Positions 22,048 through 27,016 of a DNA stretch of 64,000 nucleotides are shown piece by piece. Numbering within the stretch: position 1 is the stretch's first letter; every line of letters starts with the position of its first letter. Location of the stretch: the NCBI RefSeq assembly GCF_001182045.1, contig NZ_CVTY01000006.1, positions 356,086-420,085 on the forward strand, read 5' to 3'. The position numbers and the translations under genes were made by a program. The stretch comes from Dakarella massiliensis. GTDB lineage: Bacteria > Pseudomonadota > Gammaproteobacteria > Burkholderiales > Burkholderiaceae_F. The notes under the pieces are model-generated. The model had not been told where the DNA came from. It did not search any database and worked only from the letters and a program-made list of their open reading frames with translations.

Positions 22048-23187
22048 ATGCGCTTCATGCAAACTGCGGCCGCTGCGGCCATTGCTTCCGCGTTTTTCTG
22101 CGGCTCCGCCTTCGCGGCGAGCCCGACCGTCACGCTGTACGGCATCGTGAATACCGGTCTCACCTATACGCATCAGAAGACCGCCCCGGGTAAGTCAACC
22201 GACACGGTTCAGATGGATAGCGGCAACTACCTCGGGAGCCGCTTCGGTTTGAAGGGTGAGGAGAAGATTACGGATACGACGTCTGTCGGCTTCATCCTGG
22301 AAAACGGCTTCTCGAGCGACACCGGTACGGGGTCGGACGATAACCGGATCTTCGGCCGTGAGGCGTCCCTCTACGCGAAGAACACGAATTTCGGTACCCT
22401 CCGGTTCGGGCGTCTCACGCAGCTCTCCGGTTCTACCGGTTCTTCCAGCATCATGGGCGGGAAGTTCTCCGCGCTCAGCACTGGCTGGGGCATTGTCTAT
22501 GGCCACAACGCCGTGTTCGCGGGCAAGTTCGGGCGCTTTGATAACGTCATCAACTATTCCACCCCGACCTGGAACGGCTTTGATCTGCATCTGCAGTATT
22601 CGGGCGGCATTGATATGAAGTCCGAAACCCCGACGGGGCGTGAAAACACCGGATCCACCACCCGCAACGGCGCGATCGGTGCCCGCTACATGAAGGGCGC
22701 TTTCAGCACGATCGGCGTGGTCGATACGTATCACTACGCGAATACGCAGGATGACGCGGGCTACACCGCGAACCTGAGTGTCGCCTACGACTTCAATGTC
22801 GCGAAGGTGTTCCTCGCCGGCCAGTACTTCAAGGACATGCGTTACCTCGGCAAGGCCGCGATTAACGACACGGTTTCCGGCGCTTCGGTCTTCGGGAACT
22901 CCACCGCCAAAGACGGCTGGGGCATCAACCTCGGCGCGACGGCTCCGGCTTTCGGCGGCAAGTTCTACGCCGCTGTCGGCTACATGGATGCCGATCATTC
23001 AGACGACACCGCCGGTAAACTGAAGCGCTACACGGTGTCCCTCGGCTACGACTATTCGCTCTCCAAGCGGACCCTCGTTTACGCCGGCGCTGGCTACATG
23101 CACGACAAGTATGACGACTTCGCCGCGACCACCGTCGGCTCCGCCTATAACTACGGCGTGACCGCGGGTCTCGTCCACAAGTTCTGA
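22048..23187 (+). CDS. Outer-membrane general porin (OmpC/Neisseria-type Gram-negative porin family)
   Basis: Signal peptide, TLYGIVNTGLTY start, alternating beta-strand pattern, and C-terminal ...VHKF. Confidence 0.8.
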   Translation: MRFMQTAAAAAIASAFFCGSAFAASPTVTLYGIVNTGLTYTHQKTAPGKSTDTVQMDSGNYLGSRFGLKGEEKITDTTSVGFILENGFSSDTGTGSDDNRIFGREASLYAKNTNFGTLRFGRLTQLSGSTGSSSIMGGKFSALSTGWGIVYGHNAVFAGKFGRFDNVINYSTPTWNGFDLHLQYSGGIDMKSETPTGRENTGSTTRNGAIGARYMKGAFSTIGVVDTYHYANTQDDAGYTANLSVAYDFNVAKVFLAGQYFKDMRYLGKAAINDTVSGASVFGNSTAKDGWGINLGATAPAFGGKFYAAVGYMDADHSDDTAGKLKRYTVSLGYDYSLSKRTLVYAGAGYMHDKYDDFAATTVGSAYNYGVTAGLVHKF

Positions 23188-23327
23188 AATTAGACCACTA
23201 AGAGTCATCTCTCCTTAGCAGTAAAGAGCAGCAAATTTGAAGGGCTCCTTCCAGTCCCATCCCAGGAAGGAGCCCCTTTTTTGTCCGCGTTTTCTGCTGA
23301 CGGTTTGTCTGTATAGTTGCCGGGGAA

Positions 23328-24218
23328 TCAGAGCGGTGTGTGGTGAATGAAGGTGGGTTTGCGGCTCATGAGCCGGTACTGGATGAGGCCGGAGGCGAGC
23401 TCCGCCGCGGTGATGAGCGCGATCCCGCCCCAGGTGAGCGCCTGCGGGGTGTCGGACGTGATCACCCACCCGAGGAGCGCGGCAAATGGCACCGCGGAGA
23501 ATTGAAGGGACGCTGAGAGAAGCGGTTTCCCGTGGCCCCAGCCCTGAGTCTGCGCGAGCTGGCTTCCGACGGTCGTAAGCCCGATCGCGAGCATCACGGG
23601 TTCGGTGAAGAGCGAAAGGGCGGATTCCGTGGAGAAGAGACTGAACATCACGATCCCGGCCGCAAGGCATCCGATCGCGAACCAGGTAACGGTCCGGATA
23701 ATGGGTTCACCGAGAGACCCAAGTTTCCAAAGTGTGAGGCCCGTCGCGGCGGAGCAGAGTCCGGAAAAGAGCCCAAGCGCGATAAAGGGGAGCGATCCGT
23801 CTTCGCCCCCCGGCCGCATCACAAGGAGCACCCCGATGAAGCCCGCCGCGATCGAGAGCAGCAGCCCCGGATCCGGGAAACGCTTCAGAAGGACGCCGCG
23901 CACCATCCCGTACGCCGCGACGAAGAGCGGAGCTGTGAAGACGAGCGTCTGAAAGAGGACGACTGACATATGCTGCACCGCGATGATATTCACGCAGAGC
24001 GCGGTGACGCCGCAGAGAATCCGGAAACACTGAAGCCTGGGGTGACGGGTTTTAAGGCTCGTTTTTGATACCGCCGCGATCACGAGGATCACGAGCGCCA
24101 TGAAGGCGGAGCGGACGAGAAAGATGTCATAAAACGCGGTCCCTTCCGGCGCAAGCTTCACGAGCGCGTAGGTGAGCGTCGTGAGAAACGTGGATAGCAG
24201 CAACCAGAAAGACTGCAC
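23328..24218 (-). CDS. DMT/EamA-family transporter
   Basis: Ten predicted TM helices in an EamA-like duplicated arrangement. Confidence 0.7.
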   Translation of the reverse strand: MQSFWLLLSTFLTTLTYALVKLAPEGTAFYDIFLVRSAFMALVILVIAAVSKTSLKTRHPRLQCFRILCGVTALCVNIIAVQHMSVVLFQTLVFTAPLFVAAYGMVRGVLLKRFPDPGLLLSIAAGFIGVLLVMRPGGEDGSLPFIALGLFSGLCSAATGLTLWKLGSLGEPIIRTVTWFAIGCLAAGIVMFSLFSTESALSLFTEPVMLAIGLTTVGSQLAQTQGWGHGKPLLSASLQFSAVPFAALLGWVITSDTPQALTWGGIALITAAELASGLIQYRLMSRKPTFIHHTPL

Positions 24219-24391
24219 GGGGATTGGCTCCGGGAACCAGGAAGAGTTTTATGGACGTAGGACTTAATCATAACGACGTATTTCGTAAAGTCCATGCAGG
24301 AAAGAAAAGACTTTGGAAGTCTCTGCGGGAAGTCAGGGAGTGACCGTCATCTTTGCCTTTCCGCCACAGAGAAGGATCGGATTTTGTCCGC

Positions 24392-24700
24392 GGAATCGGT
24401 AAAAAAGAGAATGTGAATCGGATAAATCGGTAAAAGGGCTTTAGCCGATTTGCTCGATTCGGCGAGCGGCTTTTGAGAGAGCGTCACCATTTCTCAGAAT
24501 TGAAGACGAAAAACGCCGGCACCTTCTTATCAGCCGTGGAAATCAGGGTTCTTCAGCGTTTTTAGCGGTTTTGTCTTTAGGAGGATTGCGGCTCGCGCGA
24601 TGCCGTTTCAGTCCCGAATCGGTAAAAAAGAGAATGTGAATCGGATAAATCGGTAAAAGGACTTTTACCGATTTGACCGATTCGGGAAGAGCGTCTTCAG
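24392..24700. repeat. Two copies of an approximately 90-bp direct repeat rich in ATCGG/CCGAT half-sites (iteron-like), spaced about 223 bp apart
   Basis: GAATCGGTAAAAAAGAGAATGTGAATCGGATAAATCGGTAAAAGG is identical at 24392-24436 and 24615-24659. Each copy is followed by an inverted CCGATTT..CGATTCGG. Copy 2 contains the perfect palindrome ATCGGTAAAAGGACTTTTACCGAT. Confidence 0.8.
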
Positions 24701-24883
24701 ACAGTGTCTTCTTCCCTCGGAACCGGAAACAGAAAAGCCGGTATCACCCGCCGCTGCCATCGGAGGTCTCCAATTGGCATAACGTTTTTATCTGCGGTGT
24801 GTAGGCAGAAAGCGATTGAAATACATCATCTATTTTCATTCAAAGAAATTAAAATAGTTACCTCGTTAATGACGGAGTCCCGT

Positions 24884-25180
24884 ATGTATCAAATCAGCAA
24901 ACATCACATCGCAGTTCCGCCAGGAGAAACCATCAAGGAACAGCTGGAGATTTGGGAGGTCACAAAGGCTGAATTTCTTTCCCGGATGGGTATGACAGAA
25001 GATGAGGGCGAGGCGCTTCTCGAAGGCGACATGGCGCTGACGCCGGACGTCGCCTCACGGCTGGAATCCGCGCTATCTATTGATAAGGGGTTCTGGCTCA
25101 GGCTTGAGAGCTGTTACCGCGAGGACCTCAAAGAAGTGGAAGAGGAAAACGCCCGAATGAAGAGGAAAGCCCTCTCCTGA
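24884..25180 (+). CDS. HigA/VapI-like XRE-HTH antitoxin-family protein (paralog 1)
   Basis: PPGETIKEQLEIWEVTKAEFLSRMGMTEDEGEALLEGDMALTPDVASRLESALSIDKGFWLRLES matches the HigA/VapI HTH pattern. The start is chosen at MYQ, with GGAG 8 nt upstream. Confidence 0.55.
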   Translation: MYQISKHHIAVPPGETIKEQLEIWEVTKAEFLSRMGMTEDEGEALLEGDMALTPDVASRLESALSIDKGFWLRLESCYREDLKEVEEENARMKRKALS

Positions 25181-25212
25181 ATCCCACGGATTATGATGAC
25201 GGGCTCCAGCAC

Positions 25213-25491
25213 TTGAAACCCTGCAGAAAGAGAATGAAGGTAAAACCGATTCCCGAGAAAACCGCGCTGCCGCCCGGATCGATGATCGGAGAGATGCTCG
25301 CGATGCAGCAGATCTCGCTCTCCCGCTTCGCCTCAGCGCTTGAGATGACTGAAACCGATGCCGAATCGCTCCTCGCGGGCAGCCTGCCGCTCACGGACGC
25401 GATCGCGAAGAAGCTGGAGACGCTTCTCGATCTCCCTGCGCACTTCTGGCTTGGACTTGAAGCGAGCTACCGCTCGGATCTCAAAAAATAA
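25213..25491 (+). CDS. HigA/VapI-like XRE-HTH antitoxin-family protein (paralog 2)
   Basis: PPGSMIGEMLAMQQISLSRFASALEMTETDAESLLAGSLPLTDAIAKKLETLLDLPAHFWLGLEASY has the same architecture as paralog 1. Confidence 0.55.
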   Translation: MKPCRKRMKVKPIPEKTALPPGSMIGEMLAMQQISLSRFASALEMTETDAESLLAGSLPLTDAIAKKLETLLDLPAHFWLGLEASYRSDLKK

Positions 25492-25784
25492 AGACGGCGT
25501 CAAAGACTGACCCCGTCTCCTCAGACAATTATCTGTGTCAGTAAAAAAGAAAACCTCCATTCCGTGAGTAATCAGGGGATGGAGGTCTTCACGTGCAGAA
25601 AGGCGTGTCAGCGTGCGGTTTTAACGCCTTTCTAGGCACCCGGAAGAACTGCCTCTCAGAAATTTATCTATTGAGACAGCCATATCCGTAGTCTACCTTT
25701 GCTGTACCGGAATTGCTAAAAAATTGAGGTATCCAGACAGATTTAGGTTATACGGAAAAGCTGAAAAGAATACAGGCAAGCCTG

Positions 25785-26066
25785 TCAGGCGTAAGGGCGG
25801 GATTCGATCCAGGCGTAGATATCAGCCGCGCGCCAAGCGACGGACTGAATGCCGATTTTTAAACTGCGTGGGAATCTGCCTCTTATGGAATCCATGTAAA
25901 TTGAGGTTCTGCTCCTGCCGGTGAGCCGGACCACTTCTCTTATCCGCATCAGACCGGGATGTTCTTCTCTCAGTTTTTCATAGAAATCTGTAGTGACATA
26001 GTCAAGGGCATTCCACGCAGAGGGCTGGGAATCCTTGGAAGAAGCGGAAAATCCAGTGTTTTTCAT
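25785..26066 (-). CDS. alpA: AlpA-family phage/island transcriptional regulator (probable true start near 25949)
   Basis: MRIREVVRLTGRSRTSIYMDSIRGRFPRSLKIGIQSVAWRAADIYAWIESR matches the Phage_AlpA HTH. Confidence 0.65.
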   Translation of the reverse strand: MKNTGFSASSKDSQPSAWNALDYVTTDFYEKLREEHPGLMRIREVVRLTGRSRTSIYMDSIRGRFPRSLKIGIQSVAWRAADIYAWIESRPYA

Positions 26067-26087
26067 TTAACTTCTCCTTACTCAGAT

Positions 26088-26127
26088 TAAAAAGCCTGTC
26101 AGGGAATCAAAACCCAATCTGACAGGC
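26088..26127 (-). terminator. Hairpin terminator (minus strand) between the secreted-protein pseudogene and alpA
   Basis: GCCTGTCAG...CTGACAGGC 9-bp stem followed by CTTTTT on the minus strand. Confidence 0.45.
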
Positions 26128-26291
26128 GGCCTTCCAGGGCGAGCGTTGCCTGCCCTGTTTCGGGCCAGAAGCCCGAAAGGTAATTCGTAAGAGAGTTAAT
26201 AGGCGAGGGTATAGCCCCGCCCAAAGATTTTCCTGATGCCGCTTTTATAGCGTTTTCTCAATCCGATTTCATCCGGATTTTCTTCTTACCA

Positions 26292-26852
26292 GTCGTGCAG
26301 CTCGTATTTGCCGTTCGAATCCGCGGTGAGGCTCTGCTTCGTCACCGGGTTGTAGTAGGCGGGTTTCCCGTTCACTTCACCATTCGCGCGGAACTTGCTG
26401 TTCTTGATCATCTCTTCAAGCTTCTGCTGATTCTCTTCCGCCTGCTTTTTCAGCTGCTCCAGCTGATACTCCGGAGTCCGGGTATAGGCGGTGCCTTGGA
26501 TGTAGCTTTCGTTCCAGTAGCGGCGTCGCGCGGCGGTGAGGCGGACATTCTTATCGTGAATGCCGCCGAATTTATCGTACGTCGTGATGGTTTCGTATTT
26601 GTCGTCGAGGCAGCAGCTTGAAGAGGGCTCCCGATACTGAATCCGGAAGTTCTTGATGCTCGCGGTGTCCTACCTCGGATAAGCGACATTCAGGTATGTC
26701 CGTTTCTCCGGTGCCGGCGCTTTGTAGCCGCCCATCACGGCCCGGGCAGATTCAAGCGGCGAAAACGCGTCGTAGCCCTTCGCGAGCGAGACCTGAGCCG
26801 GCGCGAGGCTTACGCCGATCAGCGCGGCGCTTAAGAGAATCCAGGGTTTCAT
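26292..26852 (-). pseudogene. Secreted protein gene interrupted by an in-frame TAG (plus 26670-26672)
   Basis: MKPWILLSAALIGVSLAPAQ...VAYPR* then continues in the same frame with DTASIKNFRIQYREP...GKYELHDW* for 125 more codons. Confidence 0.55.
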
Positions 26853-27016
26853 GACGCGGAGCCTCCATGAAGAAAAACGTGCAGGCGGGATGAGGGCAGA
26901 GCGCCCTTGCATCCCATCCTTTCTCTTCATTATAAAAATAAGAACGGAGGGAATCGGTTCCGCTTCTGTACGAAACGTGTCCCGTAACGAAAGATGCGCG
27001 ATTTCGCAGTGACGGA

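What the first reader, a model, noticed from the sequence alone, without database searches (positions are those of the whole stretch)
24360..24720. Iteron-like arrays of ATCGG half-sites in two 90-bp direct repeats between a DMT transporter and the HigA-like genes
Each repeat contains three direct GAATCGG(T/A)AAA units followed by inverted CCGATTT / CCGATTCGG units. Copy 2 includes the perfect palindrome ATCGGTAAAAGG-ACTTTTACCGAT. Arrays of this kind are typical of replication-initiator or partition-protein binding sites (iterons, parS-like sites) or of dense operator arrays. A 17-codon ORF (MPFQSRIGKKENVNRINR) overlaps copy 2, but its SD spacing is poor. Together with the downstream HTH antitoxin-like genes and AlpA, this suggests a degenerate plasmid- or ICE-derived region.
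Basis: seen in the sequence. Interest (0 to 1): 0.6.

Follow-up and report, generated by a model that had tools for sequence, protein, structure and literature searches.

The report
Tandem operator-like arrays beside orphan HigA genes
Two neighbouring copies of a short DNA module, each holding five copies of an 11-base motif, sit only at this one place in a gut Mesosutterella genome; the motifs are kept unchanged by selection and most likely serve as docking sites for the small regulator proteins encoded next door, so this is a real but fairly ordinary regulatory feature and not a relic of a plasmid origin.

Summary
Two direct copies of a 78-nt core (24391-24468 and 24614-24691, 223 bp apart) each carry five AATCGGnnAAA units arranged + + + - -. 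All nine exact matches in the 64-kb window lie in these cores, against 1.1 expected.

It is not a dispersed repeat. Pattern scans of 185,579 species genomes and of metagenomes found the array only at this syntenic Mesosutterella locus, always next to the same two toxin-less HigA-like genes.

Across five haplotypes retrieved without reference to the motif, 0 of 82 unit positions vary. In comparison, 13 of 74 other core positions and 99 of 509 other intergenic positions vary. Units that would be unpaired in a hairpin are equally invariant, which favours protein-binding sites over RNA or DNA structure.

The nearest outside relatives of HigA-like-1 (54% identity) carry the same motif upstream of their gene. 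alpA is absent, replaced or IS-disrupted in several strains whose arrays are intact. No replication, partition or integrase gene is nearby.

The best reading (about 0.45) is operator-type arrays for the adjacent HigA-like HTH pair. The closest architectural analogue is the phage P4 crr, which has two 120-bp repeats with five iterons each. The binding protein has not been shown.

The parts
24391..24468 (.). Array module 1 (core copy 1): units L1, L2, L3 direct, then R3' and R2' inverted. The right arm is imperfect.
24614..24691 (.). Array module 2 (core copy 2): units L1, L2, L3 direct, then R3 and R2 inverted. A near-perfect nested palindrome.
24394..24404 (+). Unit L1 of copy 1, AATCGGTAAAA
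24416..24426 (+). Unit L2 of copy 1, AATCGGATAAA (22 bp after L1)
24425..24435 (+). Unit L3 of copy 1, AATCGGTAAAA (9 bp after L2)
24440..24450 (-). Unit R3' of copy 1, AATCGGCTAAA on the minus strand
24449..24459 (-). Unit R2' of copy 1, degenerate (AATCGAGCAAA on the minus strand)
24617..24627 (+). Unit L1 of copy 2, AATCGGTAAAA (preceded by CCCG, forming the 9-bp palindrome CCGAATCGG)
24639..24649 (+). Unit L2 of copy 2, AATCGGATAAA
24648..24658 (+). Unit L3 of copy 2, AATCGGTAAAA
24663..24673 (-). Unit R3 of copy 2, AATCGGTAAAA on the minus strand
24672..24682 (-). Unit R2 of copy 2, AATCGGTCAAA on the minus strand
24469..24540 (.). Weakly conserved 3' extension of repeat copy 1 (homologous to 24692-24763)
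24692..24763 (.). Weakly conserved 3' extension of repeat copy 2
24469..24613 (.). Segment between the cores. It is deleted, together with half of each core, in natural single-copy strains (L182, L184).
24473..24500 (+). Weak sigma-70-like promoter match (TTGAGA-16-CAGAAT) just after module 1. Conserved in relatives but absent from single-copy strains.
24267..24294 (-). Sigma-70-like promoter match (TGGACT-16-TATGAT) in front of eamA, about 100 bp from module 1
23328..24218 (-). EamA/DMT transporter gene, divergent from the arrays
24884..25180 (+). HigA-like-1 (98 aa). HigA fold, no HigB partner, acidic recognition helix EDEGEALL.
25213..25491 (+). HigA-like-2 (85-92 aa depending on the start; ATG at 25234). 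A paralogue 43% identical to HigA-like-1.
25785..26066 (-). AlpA-family gene. A variable accessory and not a constant partner of the arrays.
24601..24657 (+). 18-codon ORF overlapping module 2, judged non-functional
24830..24857 (.). Separate palindrome CTATTTTCATT/AATTAAAATAG in the AT-rich stretch just upstream of higA-like-1. A possible proximal operator or promoter element.
   Evidence: (I14)

Best explanation
The two modules are arrays of protein-recognition sites. The unit is AATCGGnnAAA, with five units per module arranged + + + - -. The arrays are kept by purifying selection, and the most likely binders are the two toxin-less HigA-like helix-turn-helix proteins encoded immediately downstream.

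Proposed mechanism. Dimers, or mixed dimers, of the paralogues occupy the inverted pair L3/R3 and the neighbouring units cooperatively. The resulting nucleoprotein complex in the middle of the 665-bp divergent spacer tunes transcription of higA-like-1/2, and possibly of the divergent eamA transporter gene.

Shown: the arrays exist, are unique to this locus, are constrained unit by unit, and always travel with the higA-like pair. Also shown: the closest outside homologues of HigA-like-1 have the same motif in front of their gene.

Inferred: that the HigA-like proteins are the binders, and that the outcome is transcriptional control.
For: (1) Locus specificity. All 9 exact units in 64 kb lie in the two cores, against 1.1 expected. 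An architecture pattern scanned over one genome for each of 185,579 species hit only this locus in Mesosutterella multiformis, plus one chance hit inside a TraI ORF. In metagenomes, 11 of 14 hits are this same syntenic locus, one is probably a chimeric contig and two are coding-region chance hits.

(2) Purifying selection on units. In five haplotypes retrieved through the protein and not the motif, 0/82 specified unit positions vary. In comparison, 13/74 other core positions vary (Fisher 3e-5) and 99/509 spacer positions outside the cores vary (1e-7). All changes fall in the L1-L2 spacer, the loop, the 'nn' positions or the flanks.

(3) Sites and not a hairpin. L2, which is unpaired in the best fold, is invariant. 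So are the mismatched right-arm units of copy 1, whose fold is not better than shuffles (z -1.3).

(4) Constant linkage. Every locus with the array and enough flank carries higA-like-1/2 next to it, and every HigA-like-1 relative of at least 71% identity carries the array.

(5) Independent co-occurrence. The nearest non-Mesosutterella relatives of HigA-like-1 are P0025 and P0026 (54% identity, 39-40% GC contigs next to restriction-modification genes). They have AAAATCGGCAAAA about 100 nt upstream and AAAATCGG about 30 nt upstream of their start codon. The exact match is expected 0.11 times in the whole 5.7-kb locus.

(6) HigA-like-1 has a confident HigA fold (pLDDT 90.9). Its best match is DNA-bound P. 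vulgaris HigA, 6CHV, with TM 0.68-0.76. HigA antitoxins are known autorepressors that bind inverted repeats (PMC12266136).
Against: The recognition helix is unusually acidic: EDEGEALL in HigA-like-1 and ETDAESLL in HigA-like-2. Of the seven P. vulgaris HigA residues that contact DNA, Ala36, Thr37, Ser39, Arg40 and Lys45 align with Asp, Glu, Glu, Ala and Asp in HigA-like-1. Its net charge is -8.

The arrays lie 190-490 bp upstream of the higA-like-1 start codon. They do not overlap the best promoter-like sequences.

HigA-like-1 carries in-frame 7- and 8-aa deletions inside the HTH in two lineages, and is fused with HigA-like-2 in a third. No single paralogue's HTH is therefore intact in every lineage, yet the arrays do not change.

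Other relatives of the family (L010-L015, L191-L195) lack the motif. The outgroup motif match was noticed post hoc. No binding or expression data exist.
Confidence: 0.45

Rival explanations
1. The arrays are iteron-type cis elements of a mobile replicon, either a crr- or ori-like site of a satellite or prophage, or a partition centromere. They are either a relic or are still recognised in trans by an initiator encoded elsewhere.
For: The architecture closely parallels the phage P4 crr. P4 crr has two 120-bp direct repeats 180 bp apart, 98/120 identical, each with five 8-bp type-1 iterons in the order + + - - +, the first two 9 bp apart. Here there are two repeats of about 120-150 bp, 223 bp apart, each with five units in the order + + + - -, adjacent units 9 bp apart and L1 to L2 22 bp. 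P22-like phages carry 3-4 repeats of tttACCGAATCGGTAAAA at 20-24 bp phasing inside their Phage_rep_O gene, followed by a DnaB-like helicase gene. These share the 14-mer CCGAATCGGTAAAA with unit L1. An AlpA/Vis homologue lies 1.1 kb away in this strain.
Against: No initiator, primase-helicase, partition, integrase or relaxase gene lies within +/-6 kb. There is no tblastn trace of the P22-type O protein or of any P4 protein except Vis in 64 kb. No DnaA box (fewer than 2 mismatches) and no AT-rich stretch adjoins the arrays. No second array was found in the representative genome. The locus is chromosomal, syntenic and vertically inherited. Strong unit-level purifying selection is unexpected for a relic. 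The P22 match came from a search that used the motif itself, and the half-sites are arranged head-to-head there but tail-to-tail here. alpA is not a constant neighbour.
Confidence: 0.12
2. The arrays are binding sites for a host-encoded transcription factor that controls the divergent eamA/DMT gene, and are unrelated to the HigA-like genes.
For: The arrays sit in the eamA upstream spacer, about 100 bp beyond a promoter-like match for eamA. Selection on the units shows that a trans factor is present in all strains.
Against: The motif occurs nowhere else in 64 kb, so a regulator with a wider regulon is unlikely. The eamA orthologue of a related genus sits in a LysR-eamA operon with no such motif. 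The LysR/flavoprotein spacer of the window lacks the motif.
Confidence: 0.12
3. Each module acts as a hairpin, as a structured RNA (small RNA, leader or attenuator) or as a DNA cruciform, and the units are simply its stem sequences.
For: Copy 2 folds to -32.7 kcal/mol, z = -4.5. 94% of cells are paired over eight copies, and two base pairs at the foot of the outer stem differ compensatorily between copy 1 and copy 2. R2 can pair with either L1 or L2, giving alternative pairings.
Against: Copy 1 does not fold better than shuffles (z = -1.3 on the plus strand, -1.7 on the minus strand). Its arm mismatches are stably inherited and not repaired. L2, unpaired in the best fold, is as invariant as the paired units. 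The two 'compensatory' pairs lie in non-homologous flanks, and their chance probability is about 0.14. There is no Rfam match at E<=1 and no terminator-like site in the spacer. The 18-codon ORF is not shared by copy 1 or by single-copy strains.
Confidence: 0.1
4. The units are binding sites for AlpA (a recombination directionality factor or regulator), or arm-type sites of a lost integrase, which would make the region an old att site.
For: An AlpA-family gene lies 1.1 kb away. It resembles P4 Vis (36.5% over 52 aa, E 1e-9). Such proteins and integrases bind arrays of short direct and inverted repeats; the P4 record annotates 12-bp arm repeats around attP.
Against: alpA is absent from the M. 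multiformis type strain and from the L007 and L183 lineages, where a flavocytochrome gene pair takes its place. It is split by a 1.9-kb IS in L182. In all of these the units are unchanged. There is no integrase and no tRNA gene in 64 kb.
Confidence: 0.05
5. The modules are copies of a small mobile or dispersed repeat (MITE, REP or PATE-like) with terminal inverted repeats.
For: Copy 2 has 16-nt terminal inverted repeats, TCCCGAATCGGTAAAA/TTTGACCGATTCGGGA (I5). The two hairpins are in direct orientation, as at IS200/IS605 ends.
Against: Only this one locus carries it in the window, in the representative genome and in metagenomes. There is no target-site duplication. Homology runs on 3' of the core, as after a local tandem duplication. 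There are no blastn hits in the plasmid or phage collections.
Confidence: 0.02

Closest known systems
HigA antitoxin operators (for example hig O1/O2 of Proteus vulgaris Rts1, or the P. aeruginosa higBA promoter palindrome)
   Same: Inverted-repeat sites lie upstream of a gene for a HigA-fold HTH protein (fold match to 6CHV and 7CSY). The protein family is known to autoregulate by binding such sites (PMC12266136).
   Different: There is no HigB toxin gene here. Two tandem paralogous antitoxin-like genes are present. There are ten units in two 78-nt modules where known systems have one or two palindromes. The arrays lie 190-490 bp from the start codon and do not overlap the promoter. The motif is unrelated to known HigA operators. 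The recognition helix is acidic.
crr (cis replication region) of satellite phage P4
   Same: Two direct repeats of about 120 bp separated by a short spacer. Each holds five short iterons in both orientations, with adjacent iterons 9 bp apart. An AlpA/Vis-family gene is present in the same element or neighbourhood.
   Different: P4 crr iterons (TGTTCACC) are shared with a separate ori, are bound by the alpha primase-helicase encoded next to crr, and lie beside attP and int. Here there is no alpha, ori, int or att, and the motif differs. The locus is a fixed chromosomal site, and alpA is not a constant neighbour.
Origin iterons of lambdoid and P22-like phages (inside the O / gene 18 replication gene)
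   Same: The half-site TCGGTAAAA and the 14-mer CCGAATCGGTAAAA are identical. The phasing of about 22 bp matches that between L1 and L2.
   Different: The phage iterons are head-to-head palindromes repeated 3-4 times in one direction, inside a Phage_rep_O gene, and are followed by an A+T-rich stretch and a helicase gene. None of this context exists in the window. The resemblance was found by searching with the motif.
Centromere or operator arrays such as parC of plasmid R1 (two blocks of 11-bp repeats flanking a promoter) or omega-protein heptad arrays of pSM19035. These comparisons are from general knowledge and were not tested here.
   Same: Two blocks of short repeated units flank a promoter-like sequence. 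The units occur in both direct and inverted orientation.
   Different: No partition ATPase or adaptor gene is present. The putative binder here has an HTH fold and not a ribbon-helix-helix fold.

Membership tests
Dispersed repeat (REP/BIME, MITE) | Many copies scattered over the genome | tested here: not met
   The units and the 46-nt core occur only at 24391-24691 in 64 kb. There is one locus in the representative genome and in metagenomes.
Dispersed repeat (REP/BIME, MITE) | Terminal inverted repeats with a target-site duplication | tested here: inconclusive
   Inverted termini are present in copy 2 (I5). No duplicated flank is seen in the sequence.
Replication-origin iterons (plasmid, lambdoid, P4 ori/crr) | Several phased copies of a short initiator-binding repeat | tested here: met
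   Ten units, spaced 9 and 22 bp apart.
Replication-origin iterons (plasmid, lambdoid, P4 ori/crr) | Cognate initiator gene adjacent to, or enclosing, the repeats | tested here: not met
   Pfam content of +/-6 kb: LysR, flavoprotein, porin, EamA, AlpA, cation efflux, GntR, fumarase. No tblastn hit for the P22-type O protein or P4 alpha in 64 kb. The search was not exhaustive for every Rep family.
Replication-origin iterons (plasmid, lambdoid, P4 ori/crr) | Adjacent A+T-rich unwinding element and/or DnaA boxes | tested here: not met
   The segment between the modules is 49.7% GC. The lowest-GC 40-mer lies at 24815, away from the arrays. No TTATCCACA match with fewer than 2 mismatches occurs in the spacer.
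Replication-origin iterons (plasmid, lambdoid, P4 ori/crr) | Supports replication, or causes incompatibility | not testable with these tools
   Needs a replication or incompatibility assay.
P4-type crr | Two direct repeats of about 120 bp, each with about five iterons in both orientations | tested here: met
   Compare with the P4 record.
P4-type crr | Lies in a P4-like satellite (int, attP, alpha, cos, sid/delta/psu) and shares its iterons with a separate ori | tested here: not met
   Only Vis/AlpA has a homologue in the window. No second array was found.
parS / plasmid centromere | Neighbouring parA/parB-type or parM/parR-type genes | tested here: not met
   None are among the called genes with Pfam hits within +/-6 kb.
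HigBA type II toxin-antitoxin module | HigA-fold HTH antitoxin | tested here: met
   TIGR02607 E 7e-10 and 2e-8, both below the curated cut-off. PDB HigA E 2e-8. AlphaFold model with pLDDT 90.9, best match 6CHV, TM 0.68-0.76.
HigBA type II toxin-antitoxin module | HigB toxin gene immediately upstream in the same operon | tested here: not met
   There is no ORF and no tblastn trace of the HigB-like protein of relatives (L011) in the spacer or the window. Relatives L011 and L012 do have a 97-98-aa gene directly upstream.
HigBA type II toxin-antitoxin module | Antitoxin binds an inverted repeat in its own promoter | not testable with these tools
   There is only indirect support: linkage, unit-level selection, and the same motif upstream of 54%-identical homologues.
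Structured RNA family | Match to a curated covariance model | tested here: not met
   No Rfam 15 match at E<=1 in 23000-27000.
Structured RNA family | Pairing maintained by covariation in all copies | tested here: inconclusive
   94% of cells are paired, but most pairs never vary. There are two both-side changes in the non-homologous flanks. Copy 1 does not fold better than shuffles.
Integrase/RDF attachment region | Integrase gene and an att core (often a tRNA 3' end) next to the arm repeats | tested here: not met
   No tRNA gene in 64 kb. No P4-int homologue. alpA is absent from several array-bearing strains.

The most novel reading that the evidence does not exclude
The arrays are not an ordinary autoregulatory operator. 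Instead they are a selected chromosomal iteron block of the crr type, without a replicon of its own. It could act as a decoy that titrates the replication initiator of an invading phage or satellite, since the half-site is identical to P22-type origin iterons. Alternatively it could be a helper-dependent cis site. In either case the toxin-less, acidic HigA-like pair would serve as modulators and not as the DNA binders.
Probability: 0.06. Interest if true: 0.7.

Novelty: new member of a known kind. Interest (0 to 1): 0.3.

Why it matters
If the adjacent HigA-like proteins bind these units, the locus would show an antitoxin-type regulator that has outlived its toxin. It has duplicated and acquired an unusually large site array (2 x 5 units) in front of a transporter gene in a common human-gut bacterium. 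That would be a small, concrete case of toxin-antitoxin parts being turned into ordinary regulators.

The locus also offers a ready natural experiment. Strains exist with two modules, with one hybrid module, with damaged HigA-like-1, and with or without alpA.

The stakes are modest. The kind of element, a cluster of transcription-factor sites, is well known, and no long-standing question hangs on it.

Tried and rejected
1. Rfam scan of 23-27 kb at E<=1 found nothing.
2. tRNA scan of the window found none.
3. blastn of the arrays against the plasmid and phage collections found nothing.
4. tblastn of AlpA and HigA-like-1 against plasmids found only remote relatives, at most 46% identical, and no parent element.
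5. AlpA relatives in viral contigs: none.
6. Decayed higB in the spacer: no trace.
7. Lambda-O-like or P4 gene remnants in the window: none except Vis/AlpA.
8. Leader-peptide or attenuator idea for the 18-codon ORF: rejected. It has no counterpart in copy 1, the Shine-Dalgarno sequence is 15 nt from the ATG, no terminator follows, and the start is deleted in single-copy strains.
9. LysR-type or ArgR/TyrR-box readings of the motif: no convincing match by eye, and the motif is absent from the LysR spacer of the window and of a related genus.
10. Literature search for the motif strings: only primer coincidences. Searches for AlpA binding sites and for a description of the P4 crr gave nothing usable, so the P4 GenBank record was used.
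11. Viral-contig hits other than the P22-like family were simple tandem repeats in A+T-rich genomes.
12. Metagenome hits L176 and L181 lie inside a ketoacyl-synthase gene, and genome hit L003 lies inside a TraI gene. All three are chance matches.
13. L187 joins 360 nt of this locus to low-GC dapB-type genes and is probably a chimeric assembly.
14. The 'low-GC island' argument was weakened: the window averages 53.8% GC, and the higA-like genes are 53-57%.
Full report
**What is there.** The 665-bp spacer between an EamA/DMT gene (23328-24218, minus strand; Pfam EamA) and the first of two small plus-strand genes (24884-25180 and 25213-25491) contains two direct copies of one module. The repeat finder reports 121 nt at 79% identity, 223 bp apart. 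The core, 24391-24468 versus 24614-24691, is 69/78 identical, and its left 45 nt are identical in both copies. Weaker but significant similarity continues about 70 nt to the 3' side (0/2000 shuffles) and not to the 5' side. Each core holds five copies of an 11-nt unit, AATCGGnnAAA. Three are direct: L1, then L2 22 bp later, then L3 9 bp later. Two are inverted: R3 and R2, 9 bp apart. All nine exact matches to this pattern in the 64-kb window lie in the two cores, against 1.1 expected; the tenth unit is degenerate. Copy 2 is a nearly perfect nested palindrome, whereas the right arm of copy 1 is imperfect.

**Where it occurs.** A pattern requiring L2, L3 and R3 was scanned over one genome for each of 185,579 species. 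It hit only this locus in Mesosutterella multiformis 4NBBH2, plus one chance match inside a TraI gene. The window is not that strain; it is 92.7% identical over 5 kb, but it is the same locus. The same scan of metagenome contigs gave 14 hits. Eleven are this syntenic locus, one is probably a chimeric contig, and two lie inside a ketoacyl-synthase gene. The plasmid and phage collections have no similar DNA, Rfam has no match, and the window has no tRNA gene. The element is thus lineage-specific and single-locus.

**Selection.** Loci found through exact or related HigA-like-1 proteins, so without reference to the motif, give five haplotypes of the spacer. Neighbouring genes are 92-97% identical to the window, while parts of the spacer fall to 78-82%. 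Of the 82 specified unit positions, none varies. Of the other 74 core positions, 13 vary (Fisher 3e-5). Of 509 spacer positions outside the cores, 99 vary (1e-7). Every change lies in the L1-L2 spacer, the loop, an 'nn' position or a flank. The units are therefore under purifying selection, which means a factor that reads them is present in living populations. This argues against a decaying relic.

The two copies in the window share spacer states that neither copy has in the other lineage, so gene conversion between copies also occurs. Two metagenome contigs of different haplotypes (L182, L184) carry a single hybrid module: the left part is of copy-1 type, the right part is of copy-2 type, and the 223-bp unit between is gone. 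This shows recurrent recombination between the repeats, and that one module without the intervening segment is viable.

**Sites or hairpin?** Copy 2 folds well (z = -4.5), but copy 1 does not (z = -1.3). In a count over eight copies, 94% of cells pair. Nearly all pairs never vary, and the only two both-side changes lie in the non-homologous flanks at the stem foot, with a chance probability of about 0.14. L2, which is unpaired in the best fold, is as invariant as the paired units. The mismatched right-arm units of copy 1 are inherited unchanged and are not repaired. No terminator-like site is present. Conservation follows the unit sequence and not pairing, which favours recognition by a protein.

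**Who binds?** The two downstream genes are paralogues, 43% identical. They match the HigA antitoxin family below NCBIfam's cut-off and match solved HigA structures (E 2e-8). An AlphaFold model of the first (pLDDT 90.9) matches DNA-bound P. vulgaris HigA best (TM 0.68-0.76). No HigB toxin gene or remnant precedes them, although more distant relatives have a 97-98-aa gene in that position.

The arrays and this gene pair are always found together. The nearest relatives outside Mesosutterella are 54% identical, come from 39-40% GC contigs, and lie beside restriction-modification genes. They carry AAAATCGGCAAAA about 100 nt upstream and AAAATCGG about 30 nt upstream of their start codon, and in two otherwise 95%-identical contigs the proximal copy lies in opposite orientations. 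The exact match is expected 0.11 times per 5.7-kb locus. This is the best, though post hoc, evidence that the motif belongs to this HTH subfamily.

Against this, the recognition helix is very acidic (EDEGEALL and ETDAESLL). Five of the seven P. vulgaris HigA residues that contact DNA, including the only base-specific one, Arg40, align with Asp, Glu, Glu, Ala and Asp. HigA-like-1 has in-frame deletions inside the HTH in two lineages and is fused to HigA-like-2 in a third. The arrays also lie 190-490 bp from the start codon and overlap no good promoter match.

**AlpA and the 'mobile relic' idea.** The AlpA-family gene (25785-26066) resembles P4 Vis but is not a constant neighbour. In the M. multiformis type strain and in the L007 and L183 lineages, a cytochrome c plus flavoprotein gene pair occupies its place. 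In L182 a 1.9-kb IS splits it. In all of these the units are unchanged. No integrase, primase, O-like, partition or relaxase gene is nearby. The GC dip is modest.

**Known analogues.** Scans of viral contigs with the unit found P22-like phages in which 3-4 repeats of tttACCGAATCGGTAAAA lie inside the Phage_rep_O gene ahead of a DnaB-like helicase gene. This is the classical lambdoid origin arrangement. The half-site is identical to the one here, but the arrangement and context differ, and the search itself imposed the motif. The closest architectural match is the P4 crr: two 120-bp direct repeats, each with five 8-bp iterons in both orientations, adjacent ones 9 bp apart. The present locus works like such an array in form, but it fails the membership tests that need an initiator gene, a second origin and a satellite backbone.

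**Verdict.** This is a real, selected, single-locus cluster of protein-recognition units, and most probably an operator-type array for the adjacent toxin-less HigA-like regulators (about 0.45). Smaller probabilities go to a crr/iteron-type element read in trans (0.12), a host factor controlling eamA (0.12), an RNA or DNA hairpin (0.10), AlpA or integrase sites (0.05) and a mobile repeat (0.02). It is a new member of a known kind, and interest is low to moderate.

Noticed in passing
L007 5001-5276; L008 3913-4185; L006 4998-5276 (orthologues of window 24884-25491): HigA-like-1 carries an in-frame 7-aa deletion (L007) or 8-aa deletion (L008) inside the helix-turn-helix. In L006 the two paralogues are fused into one hybrid gene (HigA-like-1 N-terminus plus HigA-like-2 C-terminus), evidently by recombination between the paralogues.
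   Followed up: partly
window 26286-26930 (minus strand): A gene for a 214-aa signal-peptide protein, intact in L006 and L008, is broken in the window into 86-aa and 41-aa ORFs. It is a likely pseudogene.
   Followed up: partly
L004 547-2987; L007 5718-6803; window position about 25697-26284: The alpA segment and a cytochrome c (122 aa) plus flavoprotein (598 aa) gene pair are alternative contents of the same slot between higA-like-2 and the 214-aa gene in different Mesosutterella strains. The type strain has the flavocytochrome version.
   Followed up: partly
L182 1994-3875 (insertion at window about 25973-25981): A 1.9-kb insertion encoding a 569-aa transposase-like protein splits alpA, with a 9-bp duplication of the target.
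   Followed up: partly
window 25553-25586: Hairpin ACCTCCAT...ATGGAGGT. On the minus strand it is followed by TTTTCTTTTTT, which makes it a likely intrinsic terminator of alpA. The whole 25492-25784 spacer is 97% conserved between lineages, more than the flanking genes.
   Followed up: no
window 24830-24857: A separate palindrome CTATTTTCATT/AATTAAAATAG lies in the most A+T-rich 40 nt of the spacer, just upstream of the higA-like-1 ribosome-binding site. It is conserved in relatives and may be the proximal promoter or operator.
   Followed up: no
L009 2386-2401 versus L190 1982-1997: In two 95%-identical upstream regions of a HigA-like-1 homologue, a roughly 10-nt segment holding AAAATCGG is inverted between flanking CCCC and GGGG runs. 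This is a tiny natural inversion that keeps the motif.
   Followed up: partly
L142 800-880 and about 20 other viral loci (L140, L145, L151, L155, L157 and others): P22/BTP1-like phages carry origin-type iterons tttACCGAATCGGTAAAA inside their O-like replication gene, followed by an A-rich stretch. These share a 14-mer with unit L1 of the window.
   Followed up: yes
L016 4970-6897: In a related organism the eamA homologue (49% identical) is co-transcribed with the LysR gene and lies divergent from the flavoprotein-porin pair. The same four genes are arranged differently in the window, where eamA stands alone with its own spacer.
   Followed up: partly
L187 8889-9250: A metagenome contig joins 360 nt of this spacer (module 1 plus the inter-module segment) to low-GC dapB and class 3 fructose-bisphosphatase genes. 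It is most likely a chimeric assembly, but a second genomic context cannot be excluded.
   Followed up: partly
window 24219-24390: The left part of the spacer exists as two sharply different haplotypes, 78% versus 90% identical to the window. These do not follow the haplotypes of the rest of the spacer, which suggests recombination within the spacer.
   Followed up: no
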